The position numbers and the translations under genes were made by a program. A stretch of 64,000 nt of DNA, taken from NCBI GenBank assembly GCA_951406725.2, contig OX597817.1:135346001-135410000 (forward strand). The letters run 5' to 3'. The notes beneath the pieces are model-generated. The model saw only the letters and a program-made list of their open reading frames with translations. It ran no database searches and was not told the origin of the DNA. Origin of the DNA: Octopus vulgaris. Lineage: Eukaryota. Below, in pieces: positions 31,766-63,538 of this stretch (position 1 is its first letter; each line of letters starts with the position of its first letter).

Positions 31766-32319
31766 TTGTCCTTTTCCGTCATTGGTCGACACTATTGCAG
31801 AGTCAGTCACTTAAAACCACCTCACCTCTGCCTGGGTTGTTTTCAGACCCAAATGCCTGTCCTCAACTACAATCGTCCATCTTTTCCCTAACGAATAATC
31901 AAAGAAGGAAACAGAAGCCAATATGTTCGCAGCATCCATGGAATTGCATCCGATGCCAGATATCGATTATGTCCGCACACATCAGCATTCTGATCCCTCC
32001 TTCGGTATTTTCTGTAGGAGTTTACACCTTCAACATTTTCAAAACGTTCAATAAATTGTCCCAAAAGGCAGCGGGTGTTTATTATTCGCGTGGCTTTATG
32101 GTTTGTGCAGAGCCAAACCCACCCTCTTGTCCTTCAAACTTCTATAAGTCTGGTGCAGCAAGTGCCAAGTTATCAGGATGCAGGATTAATATGGAGTTAC
32201 CTACTATTCGATGAGCAGACAAGAGAGCTAATTGCCCTCATCAGCCTGGCTCCGTTGCAATGTCTGTGAAGGGCCTTCTGCCAGAGGCAATTTGGGACAT
32301 GCTAATTAACCCATAACTA

Positions 32320-32534
32320 AAAGGCGGCGAGCTGGCAGAATTATTAGCACGCCGGGCGAAATGCTTAGCGTCATTTCTCTCGGCGCTATATTCTGAGTTC
32401 AAATTTCGACGCGGTTGACTTTGCCTTTCATCCTGTCGGGGGTCGATAAATTAAGTACCAGTTGCATACTGAGGTCGATCTAATCGACTTGACCCCTCCC
32501 TCAAAATTTCGGGCCTTGTGCCTAGAGTAGAAAA
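32320..32534 (+). mobile_element. SINE family A, full length with 17-bp TSD
   Basis: TAATTAACCCATAACTA at 32303-32319 and 32535-32551. Confidence 0.92.
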
Positions 32535-32748: not shown

Positions 32749-33654
32749 TGTGTAGACCGGTGTTCGTAGCTAATTACTTTTAGCCAATCCTTGAGAAAGC
32801 AACAGTTGAAACTGGTAGCATACGTAAATCTGTTTGCGTATGCGTTTGTCTAAGCACGTTTGTGTATAGATTTGAAAACGTGTTGTGTGTATGTATGCAC
32901 GTTCTTGTGTAAGTGGCTGCGCGTGTGATATAATGAACGTGTGTATATGTGGTGTGTACATGTACGTGTGTATGATAAAGATACAACCTGACAGAAAGAC
33001 AGACAGAAAGACGGACGAGTAGAGTTCAACGTTCTGTGTGTCTTGAAAAGTAGACATCGGTTGAATATCGTAAATAAACATCGTCTGTCAACGTCAAACG
33101 TTACTTTTATGTCGACGTCTGCCGAGGCACACGACATACTGTGTCTACTTACAAAATGCATTATTTCACTTCTTACACTTCGCTATATCTACAGTAACAA
33201 ACACGAACACTTTATTCTACATATACACGGCACCAACAATGAAAGCAACACTTTGGTAATATTCACTTGGCACATAATAAAACATTGCCCACTTATTATG
33301 ACTGCGCAGTGACTGATCATGATAAATTGCCAAGATGTTTTATAAATTAGTTTAATGATATTAAAAACAAATTAGTAAGTATTATCGTGGCTATCAAATA
33401 GTAATGTCTGCTGTTTGTTTAGAGAGGTGAATATATGCTTCTGTGTCTATGGAAAGACAATTGGGAAAACAAAATATAAACAGCCAATTGTCAGAAATCA
33501 TAATTGAATTCAATTTAACAAAGGAAGACAAGGAAAAACAGACGATGATGATTTCAAATATTTGGCACAAGGTCAAAAATTGTAGGATAGGAAGAAGGTC
33601 GATGACATCGACTCCAGTACTCAAATGGTACTTACTTTATACGAACATTTCAGA

Positions 33655-34271
33655 GTGTTTGGGTATTAATCTGAGGACATGGACCGAGAGTGATAAAAAT
33701 CAAACACCCAGTCAACATCATGGTATTTGGGATGATCAGTAGTGATGGCGAGGTTATACCTCCGTTCATCTTCTCACACGGTCTCAGACTCAACACGGAT
33801 GCCTACATCAAGTGCCTGGAGGAGGTAGAGCTGCCCTGGGGGAAGACGGTGGCTGCTGGAAGACCCTATGTCTGGCAACAGGATTCTGCCCCATGTCAGA
33901 CAATTTCTGCGACCCCATCACCTCTAACATCTGGCCACCTAGCTCTCCAGATTGCAACTCCCTTAATTATTATGTGTGGGGTGCAGTTGAGCGAGAGACA
34001 AACAAAATTCTTTGTAACAACAAAGATGAACTGCAGGCAAGGATTATGGCAGCATTCACCAACTTAAACAAGGAGACCGTCCAGAAGAGTTGTAGGAGAT
34101 TCCGAAGTTGTCAGGAGGCTTTGGTTGAAGCCAACGGCGATTTTATTGAATAAATTTACTCTTTCGAGATATCTTTATGTGTTTTTGGTAAATACATCTG
34201 TTAAAATGAGATATAAGTGTTATTTTCACTTTCGCGTAACTCAGACGACAATTTATCCACCGCGCGCCCTG
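33655..34271 (+). mobile_element. 3' part of Tc1/mariner-superfamily transposon (DD37D/maT-like), frameshifted
   Basis: IMVFGMISSDG...WQQDSAPC and WPPSSPDCNSLNYYVWGAVE...VEANGDFIE*; ends CCCTG|TA. Confidence 0.85.
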
Positions 34272-34585
34272 TATATATAATATATATATATATATATATA
34301 ATTTCAACAATTGAGGGTAAAATTAATTAATTATTAATCAATTTCACCAAGTATTCAGTATGTAAAGGGACCATTTTAGGCGAATTCAAAATATTACATT
34401 ATATATAAGGGCTTAGTAAAATAAATTACTTTGCCACATACTGAACTCATTAGAAATAGCAGCTAAAGAAATTTCTTCAGCTATTTCTAATACTTAAAGA
34501 AGATCTCTCTCAGATAGTGTTTGCCTAAACCAACTCACAAAGGTATGGGGGAAAAAACATTAAAAAATCAAGTGCAAAGGTTATT

Positions 34586-34637
34586 TGAGAACGTACGTTT
34601 CTAGATTAGTCAATTCGACATTTCTTTCGTCAGCTCA
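34586..34637 (-). ncRNA. Minimal type I hammerhead motif, copy 1
   Basis: tgag-CTGACGA-aaga...tcta-GAAAC-GTAC-GTT-ctca. Confidence 0.75.
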
Positions 34638-35142
34638 GAATTCCTTGAATCGGATTTGGGAACACTGAAAGTTGGGAGCATACCCTTTCGGCTTCTTATC
34701 ACTTCTAGAATTCTGCTCGAACTAAAAGTGCTACCAAATTCGAATATGCAAGCGAAGAATTTCTGCTCTCCCCTTTCCACCAGCGTGGGTTAAAATTGAC
34801 AAACACCATGTATTAACGGTGAAAACCGCAGCATTTAACAGAGAAAGATGAATTATAATTTCAACAATTGAGGGTAAAATTAATTAATTATTAATCAATT
34901 TCACCAAGTATTCAGTATGTAAAGGGACCATTTTAGGCGAATTCAAAATATTACATTATATATAAGGGCTTAGTAAAATAAATTACTTTGCCACATACTG
35001 AACTCATTAGAAATAGCAGCTAAAGAAATTTCTTCAGCTATTTCTAATACTTAAAGAAGATCTCTCTCAGATAGTGTTTGCCTAAACCAACTCACAAAGG
35101 TATGGGGGAAAAAACATTAAAAAATCAAGTGCAAAGGTTATT

Positions 35143-35194
35143 TGAGAACGTACGTTTCTAGATTAGTCAATTCGACATTTCTTTCGTCAGCTCA
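35143..35194 (-). ncRNA. Minimal type I hammerhead motif, copy 2
   Basis: Identical to copy 1, 557 bp away. Confidence 0.75.
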
Positions 35195-35480
35195 GAATTC
35201 CTTGAATCGGATTTGGGAACACTGAAAGTTGGGAGCATACCCTTTCGGCTTCTTATCACTTCTAGAATTCTGCTCGAACTAAAAGTGCTACCAAAGTGCT
35301 ACCAAATTCGAATATGCAAGCGAAGAATTTCTGCTCTCCCCTTTCCACCAGCGTGGGTTAAAATTGACAAACACCATGTATTAACGGTGAAAACCGTTCG
35401 AGCAGAATTCTAGAAGTGATAAGAAGCCGAAAGGGTATGCTCCCAACTTTCAGTGTTCCCAAATCCGATTCAAGGAATTC

Positions 35481-35532
35481 TGAGCTGACGAAAGAAATGT
35501 CGAATTGACTAATCTAGAAACGTACGTTCTCA
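35481..35532 (+). ncRNA. Minimal type I hammerhead motif, copy 3 (inverted arm)
   Basis: tgag-CTGACGA...GAAAC-GTAC-GTT-ctca on the + strand. Confidence 0.75.
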
Positions 35533-36139
35533 AATAACCTTTGCACTTGATTTTTTAATGTTTTTTCCCCCATACCTTTGTGAGTTGGTTTAGGCAAACA
35601 CTATCTGAGAGAGATCTTCTTTAAGTATTAGAAATAGCTGAAGAAATTTCTTTAGCTGCTATTTCTAATGAGTTCAGTATGTGGCAAAGTAATTTATTTT
35701 ACTAAGCCCTTATATATAATATATATATATATATATATAATCCATCGCGACAAAAGCAGTATGAATACCAGAAGGTAATGTTGATCTCCGTAACGTGGAT
35801 GTTATGTTAGAACACAGAATGCTGCCATATTGAAAGGATGTCTCATAAGAATTCATGGTATATAAAAGTACTTTTATTTATATAAGTTATACATTCAACA
35901 TATTTTTATATGTTTTTTTTTTAATATTTTTATATATTTTGATACATTCGATATATTTTCTCGGTTCATGTTCGTTAATAATATCTGTATGTTTAGACCG
36001 TACCTATCGAAGTGTTGAGTCATGTCTTAAATATTATCACTTTACAAACTAAAATAAAATCATTTACAAACACTGTCTGTGCTACGTGCTGTTATCACCT
36101 ACCTGTCCTTTTTTCTATGCCAATATTGTAGTTGTTGAA

Positions 36140-36367
36140 GGGCGGCGAGCTGGCAGAATCGTTAGCACGCCGGGCGAAATGCTTAGCGGTATTTCATCTG
36201 TCGTTACGTTCTGAGTTCAAATTCCACCGAGGTCGACTTTACCTTTCATCGTTTCGGGGTCAATTAAATAAGTACCAGTTACGTACTGGGGTCGATGTAA
36301 TCGACTTAAACCCTTTGCCTAGCCTTGTTTGTCCCCTCTGTGTTTAACCCCCTGTGAGCAATAAAAA
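36140..36367 (+). mobile_element. SINE family A with 15-bp TSD
   Basis: AATATTGTAGTTGTT at 36122-36136 and 36368-36382. Confidence 0.92.
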
Positions 36368-37020: not shown

Positions 37021-37051
37021 TATTGTTGTTGTTGTTGTCGTTGTCGTTGTT

Positions 37052-37750
37052 AAGCGGTGAGCTGGCGGAATCGTTAGCACGCCGAGCAAAATGCTTAATA
37101 GTATTTCGTCCGTCTTCACGTTTTGAGTTCAAATTTCGCCGTGGTCGAGTTTGCTTTTTATCCTCTCGGGGTCGATAAAATAAGAACCATTTGATCATTG
37201 GGGGTCGATGTAATCGATTTATACCCTCTCGAAAAATTGCTAGCCTTGTGCCAAAATTTGGAACCGTTGTTGTTGTTGTTGCTGTTGTTGCTCTAGTTAA
37301 GGCGGTGAACTAGCATAATCGTTAACACGCCGGGCGAAATGCTTAGCGGCATGTCGTCCGTCGCTACGTTCTGAGTTCAAATTCCACCGAGGCCGACTTT
37401 GCCTTTCATCCTTTCTGGATCGATGAAACAAGTACCTGTTACGTACTGAGGTTTATGTAATCGACTTACTCCCTCCCCCAAATAACAGGCCTTTTGCCTA
37501 TAGCAAAAACCATTATTATTATTATTATTATTATTATGATTAGAAACGTAGCTCTAAGGCGGCGAACTGGCAAAATCGTTAGCATGCAGGACGAATTGAT
37601 TGGCGACATTTCGTCTGTCTTTACATTCTGATGACGGCTTTGGCTTTCATCCTCTCGAGTTCGATACCAGTGTTTCACTGGATTCGATGTCATAGACCAG
37701 TCCCCTCCCGAAAAATGTCAAGCCTTGTGCCTTTAGGGGAAAGGATTATT
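37052..37750 (+). mobile_element. Three consecutive family A SINEs (about 37052-37265, 37300-37510, 37558-37745)
   Basis: Three (G)GCGGYGARCT heads, each followed by the core. Confidence 0.85.
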
Positions 37751-41277: not shown

Positions 41278-43553
41278 CTTTAACACGATTTAAACATTTG
41301 TCCTTGTGTGACCACGGAATTTATTGCAAATGGCGAGTAAGCGATTAAGTAACATCGATCAATTATAATTTACAAAACGCCGGAACTCAATGTAACAATT
41401 TAGCGAAGTAAAATAGAATCCAATCAATTTTTTTTCTGTATAGTGATCCCCCACTCTCCGGTGTGGGTTGGGCCTATGCACTGTACATACCTCTGTCTGC
41501 GTGTAACTGCTCCACCAGACAGCGCGCGGCGGCAGTCATTGGGTCTAATACGAAAGACGTGCCGCGTGCTTCATCTTCTGCTATATTTTTTTTATTTGCG
41601 GTCGTCATAGTGATAACCTACCCCAAGATGTCGGTTGATACATCTAAGAAAAATAAAAGAGCTTCAATTTCTTTGGAGACCAAGATCAATATTTTGGATC
41701 GTCTTTGTAAGAGCGAAAGTGCAGTGTCCTTGGGTAGAGCTTTCTGCCTGAACGAAGCTACGATAAAAACAATCAAAAGGAATGATGCTGCCATTAGATC
41801 TGTAGAACAAAATTGTCCGGCAAGTTGTCGTCATATACAAGAGACAGATTCAAGAAAAAATGGAGAAAGCTTTAATAGTACGGATAGAAGAAAACAATCA
41901 AAAAAGAATACCATTAGATGGCAAAACCATAAAACAGATAGCATTACGATTTTACAAGAAGATTAAGGATCTGGTGTCAAGTGCGTTACATCTGTCTAGT
42001 GATAAAAAAAAAGTTGCTACAAGTGCGGGATTACTTACAAAATTCCTCGAAAGAGACGCACTGCGTAATATAAAACTGAGAGGGGAAATTCCATCGGCAG
42101 ATAAGACTGCTGCTGAAGAATTTCTTCCAAAACTAGCCAAAATAATTGAAGACGGTTATATTTCAGACAGTTTCAACGCAGATGAAATTAGTCTCCTTCA
42201 GAAAAAAATGCCAAACAGAACGTGTGTAGCAAAATCAGAGAAAAGTGCCAGTGGTTTTAAGGCAGCTAAAGACCGTGTAACTTTCTTGTTATGTAGCAAT
42301 GCTTCGGGAGGTTGTTTGTTAAAACTGTTATTAATTAATCGATCAGTTCGTCCACGTGCAATGAAAGGCGTAGACTTACGTAAATTACCAGTTCAATGGA
42401 GAGCCAATAAAAAATTATAGATGACAGCAGAAATGTTTCCTGGAAGGTTTAACAGCTGCTTCGCTCTTGAAATAAGAAGGTATGTGAAAGATAACGGTCT
42501 TGAGTTTAAGGTCCTTTTACTTATAGACAATGCACCCGGTCATCCAAATTTGGAACACCCGAATGTAAAAGTCGTATTCTTGCCACCTATTCAATCGCTT
42601 GATCAGGATATAATTTCAACATTCAAATCATATTCTATCCAACGAACATTTGAATCTATTTTAGATGAACTAAAAAAAATGGTACTTTTTCAATCATTCC
42701 AGCATGGAACAAATAAACTAGAATTGTGTTAAATATGCTGCCCTGGTTTTATCCAAATTAAAGCCATCCATCCTGCTGGAGATCACTTTGGCCAGAATTT
42801 ATAGAGCTTAAAAATCTTGTGTCTAATATAGATACAAATGAATTACATTCTGACATCATCACTCTGTCTCATCAGATTGGCAGAGAAGGTTTTGAAGAAT
42901 TAACAATTAAAGATATAGCAGAATTAACAATTGATGAAGCTCCTAATGGAGAACAAATTATAGTAAGTATTTCAGAGAATGTATATGATTCCACGTTAGT
43001 TTATAGTAGTGATGATGAAGAAGTAGTTCCACTATGTGCAAGTACAATTCTAGAAGGCCTCCAAAATAGCCAACAAACGGAGAAATCGTTTTTTTACAAA
43101 TGATAACAATGTTGAACGAGCTGAGCAATTCCAACGTGATTTGAAAATGATTATGGCACGGTGTGAAGAATCATATAAAGAACTAACAAAAATAAAATCA
43201 CAGCGTCTGATTCAAAACCAGTGAAACAAAAGAAACACAAGACGTTAATTTTATTCAAGATGCACATGAAGATATTTCGCCATTAAATATTTCCAGTAAC
43301 TAGAGTGATTTTTGCGCCACCGAAAAACGACAGAAAGTGGGCACGTTTACTGCCAGCTGAATGATTATGTTATATATATATAATTCAATTTATTTGAATT
43401 TTATTTATGAATTTTATATATGAAAATTAACATTGCTTTGATTAAGTATATTTGGATGGAGCCTATTTCTAATTTTCATATGTACACTGTATATTATTTT
43501 TTTTACACGGTTGTCTCTGCAAGGTATCCTCCGTGCAAAAAGAGAATTGATTG
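41149..43553 (+). mobile_element. Full-length pogo/Tigger DNA transposon, 2.4 kb
   Basis: 23-bp imperfect TIRs (TCAATTYTCTTTTTGCACGG) at 41149-41171 and 43531-43553; TA TSD. Confidence 0.9.
41628..43200 (+). pseudogene. pogo/Tigger (CENP-B-like HTH + DDE) transposase pseudogene
   Basis: KRASISLETKINIL, MEKALIVRIEENNQKRIPL, FNADEISL, KDRVTFLLCSNASG, LLLIDNAPGHP, IQSLDQDIISTFK across frameshifts. Confidence 0.92.
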
Positions 43554-55252: not shown

Positions 55253-55309
55253 ATACATATATAAACATATATATATGCATATGTACATACATATATGCAT
55301 ATATAGGTA

Positions 55310-55960
55310 TATTTGAAGTATTAATTTATAAAAATATGGTAAAGTAAAAGAATTCACTTTATTAATAATTAAGTGATTCGACCCCCATTTTCTCATAACA
55401 ATATAATGCTTTCTCTCCAAGAATTTAAACTGCAGTTTTTACCTCTGTAGAAATGGAATGCTCTATGACTCACGTGGGCGGACAGGGAGAATAATAGATC
55501 TCATTCGTATTTTTGGATTCGCTAGTACTGGATGTCTGGCATAGTTTGTCCGATGTTACAAATATCGGACGGGTATGTTTGATTCTTAGTATTTTCAAAT
55601 CTAAATCAAAAGAAATCTCTGAGCTGATGAAGGAAAAGTGGCGTTTTACCCACAAATCCAGAAACAGACTGTCCTCGGGTATCGTATATGGATGTGACCT
55701 TTCATTGTTTTTCCCTTATTCCTATGTGAGTTATTTTTCTGAGTATACATTGTCTGGAGACTTTTATTTGCAGTTGAAGAAATAGCCAAGTTTTTGGCTG
55801 CTATTTCGGAAAAGTTCGGTGTGTGGTAAAGTGAATTCTTTTACTTTACCATATTTTTATAAATTAATACTTCAAATACACCGTAAATGGTCTTTACATA
55901 CCGAATACTGCTTGGTCGAATTTATTAATAATTAATTGATTCGACCCCCATTTTCTCATA
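55310..55960 (+). mobile_element. Non-coding hammerhead element: 563-bp period direct repeat plus 52-bp fold-back, in (TA)n
   Basis: 55358-55397 repeated at 55921-55960; 55310-55361 is the reverse complement of 55827-55878; 3' part homologous to the 34301 element. Confidence 0.88.
55618..55679 (+). ncRNA. Minimal type I hammerhead ribozyme (GUC)
   Basis: tctgag-CTGATGA-a-gga..gtgg..ccac..tcc-a-GAAAC-AGACT-GTC-ctcggg; quasi-palindromic stem III ACAGACTGT. Confidence 0.82.
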
Positions 55961-62252: not shown

Positions 62253-63538
62253 TTTGGTTGGCAAGAAAGTAATTTCGGTTTTTTAGCGTGAAATAAGTAA
62301 ATTTTTTCATAGAAAGAATTAACTTTAATCAGTTATACCTTTTCCATTTTGTTTGATGTCCTTTTACCATCTTTCTGGCAACTTCATGATTCTACGCTCA
62401 TAGAACTTCTGGTCCTTATCAGCCACAAAGTGAAGCAAGTGCGATTTCAGGTCATCATCGTTATTGAAAGTTTTGCCATTCAAAGAATTTTGCAAACTTC
62501 GAAATAAATGGTAATCTGATGGTGCAAGGTCAGGGCTATATGGTGGATGTGACATCACTTCCCAACCAAACTCCAATAATTTTTCACGAGTTAGCAAAGA
62601 CATGTCTGGTTTAGTGTAGTCATGGTGAAACACGATTCCTTTACGATTTGCCAATTCTGGTCGTCTTTCTTTGATTAATTCCTCCAGTTTCATTAGTCGT
62701 TGACAGTAAACATCTGAATTGATCGTTTGGTTCCTTGGAAGCAGATCACAATACACAACACCTTTGTAATCCCACCAAATGGACAGCATGGCCTTTTTTG
62801 ATGCAATTCAGCTTTCGATGTGGTTTGTATTGGTTCATTACGCTTGGACCATGATCGTTTTCTATTGATGTTATTTTAGACAATCCATTTTTCCTCACCA
62901 GTGGTGATTCGTTTCAAGAAAAGTTCGATTTCATTGTTTGAGATGGGTAACGCAAATATTGATTCGTTGTGTTAAGTGAATCTCTTTCAATTCATGTGGA
63001 ACCCAAATATCGACCTTCTTAACGACTCCAAGACATTTTAAGTGATTTTCAGTTCTTGTGTGTGATACGATACATTTAACCTCTGCAATCTCTCGCACAG
63101 TTATATGACAATCAGATTCAATTGTGGTTTTGATTCGGTCATCATCAACCTCAGTAGGTCGACCAGAACTTTGTTATCTTTGAGGGAAAAATTTCCAGAA
63201 CAGAATTTCTGAAAACCATTTCTGACATATGCGTTCTATTAAGCAATCAACACGATAAACTTCACATATGTCTTTGTGAGCCTCAACAGCTTTCTTGCCT
63301 TTACGGAAGTAAAAAAAAAGCAAAACATAGCGTGAATGTTCGTTTTTGCACTCCATGTTTTAAAATTGACACTGAACTAACAGGTGTAGACAAAATTACG
63401 CGCAATTTGCTTCTACAGTAAGCTAAAAGTAACGGCTATCAAATGTCAAAAGGAAAAAAATCATAATATTGACAAAATTCATTTTAAAAAATCGTAACTC
63501 TGTTTGCGAGAAATGAAATTACTTTCTTGCCAACCCAA
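62253..63538 (-). mobile_element. Full-length mariner (DD34D), mellifera-subfamily-like, 1286 bp
   Basis: TIR TTKGGTTGGCAAGAAAGTAATTTC at both ends; TA TSD at 62251-62252 and 63539-63540. Confidence 0.92.
62330..63356 (-). pseudogene. mariner transposase pseudogene
   Basis: MECKNEHSRYVLLFFYFRKGK...; MLSIWWDYKGVVY...FHHDYTKP...HPPYSPDLAPSDYHLF; frameshifted. Confidence 0.93.

What the first reader, a model, noticed from the sequence alone, without database searches (positions are those of the whole stretch)
34301..35720. Near-identical tandem-plus-inverted triple hammerhead cassette
Two direct copies 557 bp apart and one inverted copy are essentially identical (one 11-bp slippage duplication), so the insertion looks very young. 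A minus-strand transcript has two hammerheads with self-complementary GUAC loops that could form the dimeric active form and release a 557-nt monomer. The 325-bp arms would form long dsRNA or a cruciform.
Basis: partly seen in the sequence, partly recalled or inferred. Interest (0 to 1): 0.75.

Follow-up and report, generated by a model that had tools for sequence, protein, structure and literature searches.

The report
Back-to-back hammerhead retrozyme insertion
This is one very young copy of a 557-base non-coding jumping repeat that carries a predicted self-cutting RNA motif and sits in TA microsatellites as two back-to-back arms ending at two fixed sites, a pattern likely left by a borrowed Penelope-type enzyme copying the RNA from both ends of a cut chromosome.

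Summary
In detail: two tandem units (34297-35396), a perfect 325-bp inverted arm (35396-35720) and three identical minimal type I hammerheads. It is not a unique cassette. It is one insertion of a dispersed non-coding family (364 exact hammerhead matches in the genome; sister families 60-85% identical). Of 85 insertions examined, 61 are simple inversions, all with the 3' ends facing outward, and most abut (TA)n. In 56 of 56 classifiable inversions one arm ends at site A and the other at site B, about 95 nt upstream. This locus has a 31-bp apparent target-site duplication with microhomology at both ends. The hammerhead covaries across subfamilies, including a C3-G8 to U3-A8 swap, and helix III is predicted stable only as a dimer. 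Best reading: a non-LTR retrozyme copied by a Penelope-like RT/endonuclease that primes from both target strands. Inner arm ends ignore the predicted cut site, so the template was circular or uncleaved. Cleavage, expression, circles, the parent element and polymorphism are not shown. The inverted arm is an insertion by-product. This scan noted the same pattern before on other DNA, in this genome and others.

The parts
34272..34302 (+). Left copy of an apparent 31-bp target-site duplication (imperfect TA microsatellite); its last 6 nt are also the element's site-A end (microhomology)
   Evidence: exact match to 35711-35741
34297..34853 (-). Retrozyme unit 1, 557 bp, full length; 3' end at site A (unit position 557)
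34854..35396 (-). Retrozyme unit 2, 5'-truncated (unit positions 26-557), with an 11-bp duplication
35282..35306 (+). 11-bp tandem duplication, seen in 1 of 22 sampled units that carry this exact motif
35396..35720 (+). Inverted arm, 325 bp (unit positions 132-456), sense on the plus strand, 3' end at site B; 1-nt overlap with unit 2 at 35396
35711..35741 (+). Right copy of the apparent 31-bp target-site duplication; its first 10 nt are also the element's site-B end (microhomology)
34587..34636 (-). Minimal type I hammerhead, copy 1; predicted cut 3' of 34590
35144..35193 (-). Minimal type I hammerhead, copy 2; predicted cut 3' of 35147
35482..35531 (+). Minimal type I hammerhead, copy 3 (inverted arm); predicted cut 3' of 35528
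34590..35146 (-). Predicted cut-to-cut monomer, 557 nt, strongly folded (z -7.1)
34449..34491 (-). Hairpin upstream of site B, partly kept in the sister family; candidate protein-binding element (inference)
34316..34348 (-). AU-rich hairpin in the tail between sites B and A, conserved in sequence in the sister family
55306..55960 (+). Separate insertion of a sister family (563-bp unit, hammerhead 55621-55676, 56-bp inverted arm), also in (TA)n

Best explanation
This is a very young insertion of a dispersed, non-coding 557-bp repeat with a predicted hammerhead ribozyme (a non-LTR retrozyme), likely written into a TA microsatellite by a borrowed Penelope-like reverse transcriptase/endonuclease that primed on both cut DNA strands. 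Shown: the architecture, the family, the TA targets, the two fixed 3' ends, the junction microhomologies, the covarying ribozyme fold and the lack of a long ORF. Inferred: the target was nicked on both strands up to 31 bp apart. The top-strand end annealed at site A and copied 1100 nt, almost two rounds of the unit. The bottom-strand end annealed at site B and copied 325 nt. The two cDNAs joined head to head through 1 nt of microhomology. The template was a circle or an uncleaved multimer; I favour a circle, about 60:40. The hammerhead would cut multimeric transcripts as a dimer to release the 557-nt unit.
For: Family size: 1789 candidates with 40 scored; 364 exact 25-mers; 864 + 72 hits of looser hammerhead patterns, controls 0. 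Orientation among 85 insertions: 61 minus-then-plus, 23 uninverted, 1 complex, 0 plus-then-minus. Of 61 inversions, 56 have both ends at A or B and all 56 are one A plus one B (P about 3e-17 against independent choice); 5 have one other end; none is AA or BB. 34 of the 56 come from the pattern-sampled subset. Both flanks pass a TA-repeat test in 44 of 61 inversions and at least one flank in 60 of 61. Inner junctions: microhomology of 1-11 nt in 34 of 56. Inner ends near the predicted cut: 8 of 145 against 5.5 expected; 182 of 235 segments span the cut site. Neither arm contains the other in 14 of 56 loci, and inner ends lie within 20 nt in only 3 of 56 (4.1 expected), which argues against fold-back. 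[quoted passage not shown] An autonomous RT + GIY-YIG element with intact 781-aa frames exists in the genome, ends in (TA)n, and shows long end + short end in 3 of 3 clear inverted copies. Literature: two internal RT start sites and nicking and extension of both strands by a Penelope protein (PMC11167929, parts 1-2 of 4 read); animal retrozymes as PLE derivatives (10.64898/2026.07.22.740005, parts 1-3 of 5 read).
Against: No autonomous parent with a homologous pLTR was found. Local alignments to pLTR or 3' regions of the GIY-YIG groups sampled gave z of 1.0 or less, against 52.6 for the sister-family control. None of the fetched family or sister-family loci had an attached PLE ORF. The base of stem II is an A-A mismatch in 49 of 53 motifs, and in this family the next pair is A-U, not the usual G10.1-C11.1; the active fold is not the predicted minimum-energy fold of the isolated motif. 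Eight of nine Xenopus retrozyme dimers did not cleave in vitro. TA tract lengths on the two sides do not correlate across loci (rho -0.01), so the 31-bp duplication is evident only here. At this locus the B arm lies within the A arm, so fold-back is not excluded for it; non-nested loci (14) are somewhat fewer than expected for independent arms (19.4 +/- 3.1). B-arm inner ends are weakly enriched near the cut (7 of 56, P 0.035 uncorrected). The covariation counts come from related sequences and reflect few independent events. Sister family 2 follows the two-site rule less strictly (extra ends near unit positions 528 and 180; one locus with two 528 ends).
Confidence: 0.72

Rival explanations
1. 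Same element class, but copied from a linear, uncleaved multimeric transcript of a parent array (L1-style twin priming on one RNA); the hammerhead is not used in transposition.
For: In vitro, hammerhead mutants did not impair Penelope insertion and unprocessed RNA was the main substrate (PMC11167929). A-arm inner ends are slightly enriched near site B (11 of 56, P 0.09). In L047 the units differ by 1-4% along the array and the unit nearest the junction is closest to the opposite arm.
Against: 5' truncation alone would shorten arrays in every generation, yet arms reach 5.4 units and 13 of 112 exceed two units. The hammerhead fold is kept with compensatory changes. Only 1 of 85 insertions has a complex orientation such as a copied parent junction would give.
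Confidence: 0.3
2. The inversion arises by fold-back self-priming on one arm or on an antisense template (the model of PMC3846280), not by priming from both target strands.
For: Nested arms in 42 of 56 loci, including this one; proposed for head-to-head Penelope repeats.
Against: 14 of 56 loci have arms that cannot be copied from one another; junctions are not palindromic; both outer ends sit at fixed sites next to TA target sequence.
Confidence: 0.12
3. These are 5'-truncated pLTR-only remnants of an autonomous Penelope-like element not yet found.
For: PLE-type minimal hammerhead, tail and inverted form; most PLE hammerheads occur as solo motifs (PMC4209133, passages). Only the best-scoring candidates were examined in each genome search.
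Against: Arms run through several head-to-tail units with no ORF sequence between them; a unit of about 560 bp is kept in sister families down to about 60% identity; no long ORF in six frames.
Confidence: 0.08
4. Assembly artefact.
For: Perfect identity of the copies; no spanning read or contig was available.
Against: The same architecture with locus-specific junctions occurs in 61 of 85 insertions, including diverged ones; a private 11-bp duplication; an apparent target-site duplication.
Confidence: 0.02

Closest known systems
Metazoan non-LTR retrozymes (PMC7229834, passages; bioRxiv 10.64898/2026.07.22.740005, parts 1-3 of 5)
   Same: Non-coding, low-GC tandem units each with a type I hammerhead, weak palindromic helix III, strongly folded monomer, dispersed copies, co-occurrence with PLEs.
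   Different: The unit is 557 nt (170-400 nt in PMC7229834, within 51-972 bp in the preprint). Most copies are inverted two-arm insertions in (TA)n with two fixed ends; the word 'inverted' does not occur in PMC7229834. The hammerhead resembles the PLE minimal type, with a 1x1 mismatch at the base of stem II. Circles and cleavage are not shown.
EN+ Penelope-like elements (PMC8557442 passages and sections 10-11; PMC3846280 passages; PMC11167929 parts 1-2)
   Same: Partial tandems with a head-to-head inverted 5'-truncated copy, a tail at one end only, two internal RT start sites downstream of the hammerhead, and AT-rich or (TA)n targets.
   Different: No RT or GIY-YIG ORF; the tail is about 95-100 nt rather than 30-40; the apparent TSD is 31 bp rather than 8-10.
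PLE minimal hammerheads (PMC4209133, passages)
   Same: Extra nucleotide after position 9, palindromic loop 3, U3-A8 core variant in a sister family, opposite-strand pairs a few hundred bp apart.
   Different: G10.1-C11.1 is replaced by A-U in this family, and there is an additional unpaired A before G12.
L1 twin priming (recalled, no call)
   Same: Both target strands prime cDNA, giving an inversion with junction microhomology.
   Different: Fixed internal start sites, overlapping arms, multi-unit arms, no poly(A) priming.

Membership tests
Non-LTR retrozyme | Type I hammerhead in each of at least two tandem units | tested here: met
Non-LTR retrozyme | No protein-coding capacity | tested here: met
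   six-frame translation of the tandem; no ORF of 110 aa or more over the element
Non-LTR retrozyme | Dispersed multi-copy family, GC under 50% | tested here: met
Non-LTR retrozyme | TSD longer than 4 bp when present | tested here: met
   31 bp at this locus; not discernible at other loci
Non-LTR retrozyme | Self-cleavage of the RNA | not testable with these tools
   only fold, conservation and covariation
Non-LTR retrozyme | Expressed as linear and circular monomers | tested here: inconclusive
   only contigs of runs guessed to be RNA were available; these cannot show strand, ends or circles
Canonical type I hammerhead | Core CUGANGA / GAAA / UH with three helices | tested here: met
   core positions at least 98% conserved in about 175 units while position 7 varies
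Canonical type I hammerhead | G10.1-C11.1 pair directly before G12, and loop 1-loop 2 tertiary contacts | tested here: not met
   A-A mismatch then A-U in this family; no Rfam hit; tertiary contacts not assessed
Autonomous Penelope-like element | RT + GIY-YIG ORF between pLTRs | tested here: not met
Penelope-type insertion | Head-to-head inverted copy with the tail at one end | tested here: met
   61 of 61 simple inversions face outward; 56 of 56 classifiable are A+B
PLE-derived non-autonomous element | Homology to the pLTR of an autonomous PLE | tested here: inconclusive
   none found among the GIY-YIG loci fetched; the searches scored only 150 of 6136 and 150 of 15868 candidates

The most novel reading that the evidence does not exclude
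One Penelope protein dimer loads on a single hammerhead-made RNA circle and runs two rolling-circle reverse transcriptions at once, each subunit assigned to one of two fixed start sites and one target strand. That would explain the 56-of-56 A+B rule, arrays of up to five units and the head-to-head inversions of Penelope elements in general, and these loci would be a ready substrate for testing it.
Probability: 0.3. Interest if true: 0.7.

Novelty: new variant of a known kind. Interest (0 to 1): 0.4.

Why it matters
How Penelope-like elements make their tandem and inverted insertions is described as undefined (PMC8557442), and how animal retrozymes integrate is only proposed (PMC7229834). This family gives a quantitative footprint: two fixed start sites used once each per inversion, no bias to the ribozyme cut, non-nested arms. 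It links retrozymes to Penelope machinery by mechanism and predicts the outcome of an existing in vitro assay. The single locus is otherwise an ordinary young copy. Many such perfect inverted repeats could supply dsRNA when transcribed by read-through, which is untested.

Tried and rejected
Rfam: no hammerhead family hit; the weak microRNA-model hits are the AU-rich hairpin and lie far below threshold. Expression: no RNA holder listed on record. Contigs of four runs guessed to be RNA carry family sequence but show no strand, ends or circle. Presence or absence in other individuals: the contigs break at the repeats and none spans the locus, so no verdict. A possible 46-nt intron (GTGAGT...AG at 34538-34493) was considered; no spliced joint was seen in contigs and no deletions were printed by the gap scan, so it is left open. 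The idea that the 11-bp duplication marks a heterogeneous template was dropped: it is private to this locus. Within-locus against between-locus identity did not separate circle from linear template (medians 0.005 against 0.005; 20 private alleles in all units, 106 in one unit). Parent search through GIY-YIG hits of two PLE groups found no pLTR homology. A general TSD test by TA tract length failed. Literature searches found no paper that describes twin priming or a strict two-site rule for retrozymes; the library lacks most subscription papers. Supplements of PMC8557442, PMC4209133 and the preprint were not read and may list related elements.

Full report
Observation. The window holds two direct units starting at 34297 and 34854 and an inverted arm at 35396-35720. 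Unit 2 lacks the first 25 nt and has an 11-bp duplication; otherwise the copies are identical. The arm is a perfect 325-bp partial copy. Each copy carries the same hammerhead motif: 3-4 bp stem I, CUGACGA core, stem II with an internal loop, GAAA, a 2-bp helix III closed by GUAC, and a GUU triplet. Cut to cut on the minus strand is 557 nt, which folds far better than shuffles (z -7.1, 0 of 100). There is no long ORF.

Context. The element lies in a TA microsatellite. The 31 bases at 34272-34302 recur exactly at 35711-35741. The last 6 bases of the left copy are also the element's end at unit position 557 (site A). The first 10 bases of the right copy are also its sequence at about position 456 (site B). 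I read this as a target-site duplication with priming microhomology at both ends (inference). The genome is 2.8 Gb in 227 contigs; its repeats look octopus-like to me (recall, and earlier scan notes).

Family. A genome search gave 1789 candidates, of which 40 were scored; an exact 25-mer gave 364 matches against 0 for the control. I examined 85 insertions from 83 non-redundant loci: best hits and the first places listed, on contigs 1-4. This is a sample, not the whole family. 61 are simple inversions, all minus-then-plus, so their 3' ends face outward; 23 are uninverted; 1 is complex. In 56 of the 61 both outer ends fall at A (545-557) or B (450-470), and every one has one A and one B. The other 5 have one unclassified end. 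Uninverted copies end at B (16), A (6) or elsewhere (1). Sister families at 60-85% identity keep a unit of about 560 bp, TA targets and mostly the same two ends; one lies in this window at 55306-55960. That sister family has extra end sites and one exception to the rule.

Ribozyme. Across about 175 family units the core is at least 98% invariant, while position 7 and one loop II position vary freely. [quoted passage not shown] These sequences are related, so the counts reflect a few events. Helix III is unfavourable as a hairpin (+2.4 kcal/mol) and favourable as a two-copy duplex (-9.8), matching the dimer model for PLE and amphibian hammerheads (PMC4209133 and PMC7229834, passages). Against strong activity: an A-A mismatch at the base of stem II, no Rfam match, low activity of PLE minimal hammerheads, and 8 of 9 inactive Xenopus dimers.

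Mechanism. Each outer end is the 3' end of a sense copy next to TA target sequence, which is what priming by both target strands would give. Inner junctions show 1-11 nt microhomology in 34 of 56, are blunt in 4, have inserts in 17 and a 21-nt overlap in 1. Fold-back copying cannot make the 14 of 56 loci where neither arm contains the other, and junctions are not palindromic. At this locus the arms are nested, so fold-back stays possible here. Inner ends are spread over the unit, with no overall excess at the predicted cut, and 182 of 235 segments cross it, so a cleaved linear monomer was not the usual template. Circle against uncleaved multimer is unresolved. A purified Penelope protein nicks and extends both strands and starts at two internal sites that bound the tail (PMC11167929), which fits A and B.

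Driver. The genome holds a young two-ORF element with RT and GIY-YIG domains and intact 781-aa frames. It ends in (TA)n at two sites 40 nt apart, with long + short ends in 3 of 3 clear inverted copies. A second group has frames up to 1091 aa and hammerhead-like motifs upstream of the ORF; it resembles Hydra elements by my reading, which I did not test by phylogeny, and Pfam gave it no hit. Neither shares detectable sequence with the unit. The driver is therefore inferred from the footprint, not identified.

Youth, hammerheads and the 557-nt monomer stand as predictions. A minus-strand transcript that includes the arm folds into a duplex over the whole arm and buries one hammerhead. Transcripts starting inside either arm run outward and would not form it. 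Sequencing-run contigs could not test expression, editing or polymorphism.

Novelty. Tandem/inverted insertions with a one-sided tail and TA targeting are described for PLEs (PMC8557442; PMC3846280), and retrozymes are described as PLE derivatives. My searches found no account of a strict two-site rule in retrozymes. The scan itself reported this pattern for other repeat families. Those notes are unchecked and not independent support; I had reached the twin-priming reading and the A+B count before seeing them. Verdict: a new variant of a known kind, interest 0.4.

Noticed in passing
window 55306-55960: Insertion of a sister retrozyme family (563-bp unit, about 60% identical, GUC-triplet hammerhead at 55621-55676, 56-bp inverted arm); 1722 candidates in the genome.
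   Followed up: yes
L184:2938 (-), L187-L196: Third sister family whose hammerhead has the U3-A8 core variant and changed stems I and II; 72 pattern hits.
   Followed up: partly
L124:244-5460; L121-L131, L140: Young TA-targeting RT + GIY-YIG element with an extra upstream frame of up to 479 aa, a 504-bp pLTR and a U3-A8 hammerhead-like motif with weak stem I; Penelope-like elements are usually described as single-ORF.
   Followed up: partly
L247-L262: Second abundant GIY-YIG element group with frames up to 1091 aa, hammerhead-like motifs in the upstream repeat, and a 2.2-kb inverted copy in L247; no Pfam hit.
   Followed up: partly
L174:2960-3250: Short palindromic element of another family with a hammerhead (CAAUUG loop III) in a TA run.
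   Followed up: no
window 34493-34538 (-): Splice-donor-like GTGAGT and a downstream AG are kept in both families just 3' of the hammerhead; a possible small intron as in Penelope pLTRs; no spliced form seen.
   Followed up: partly
window 33564-34271: Left flank looks like a decayed Tc1/mariner-type transposase fragment ending next to the TA target (recalled motifs; no Pfam hit).
   Followed up: partly
window 41806-42417 and 62364-62807: DNA transposon remnants (DDE_1 and Transposase_1 hits).
   Followed up: no
window 32314-32533, 36132-36314, 37044-37742: Several copies of an abundant SINE-like repeat flank the locus.
   Followed up: no
L047: Five-unit arm whose units diverge progressively (1-4%), the unit nearest the junction being closest to the inverted arm; unexplained.
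   Followed up: no
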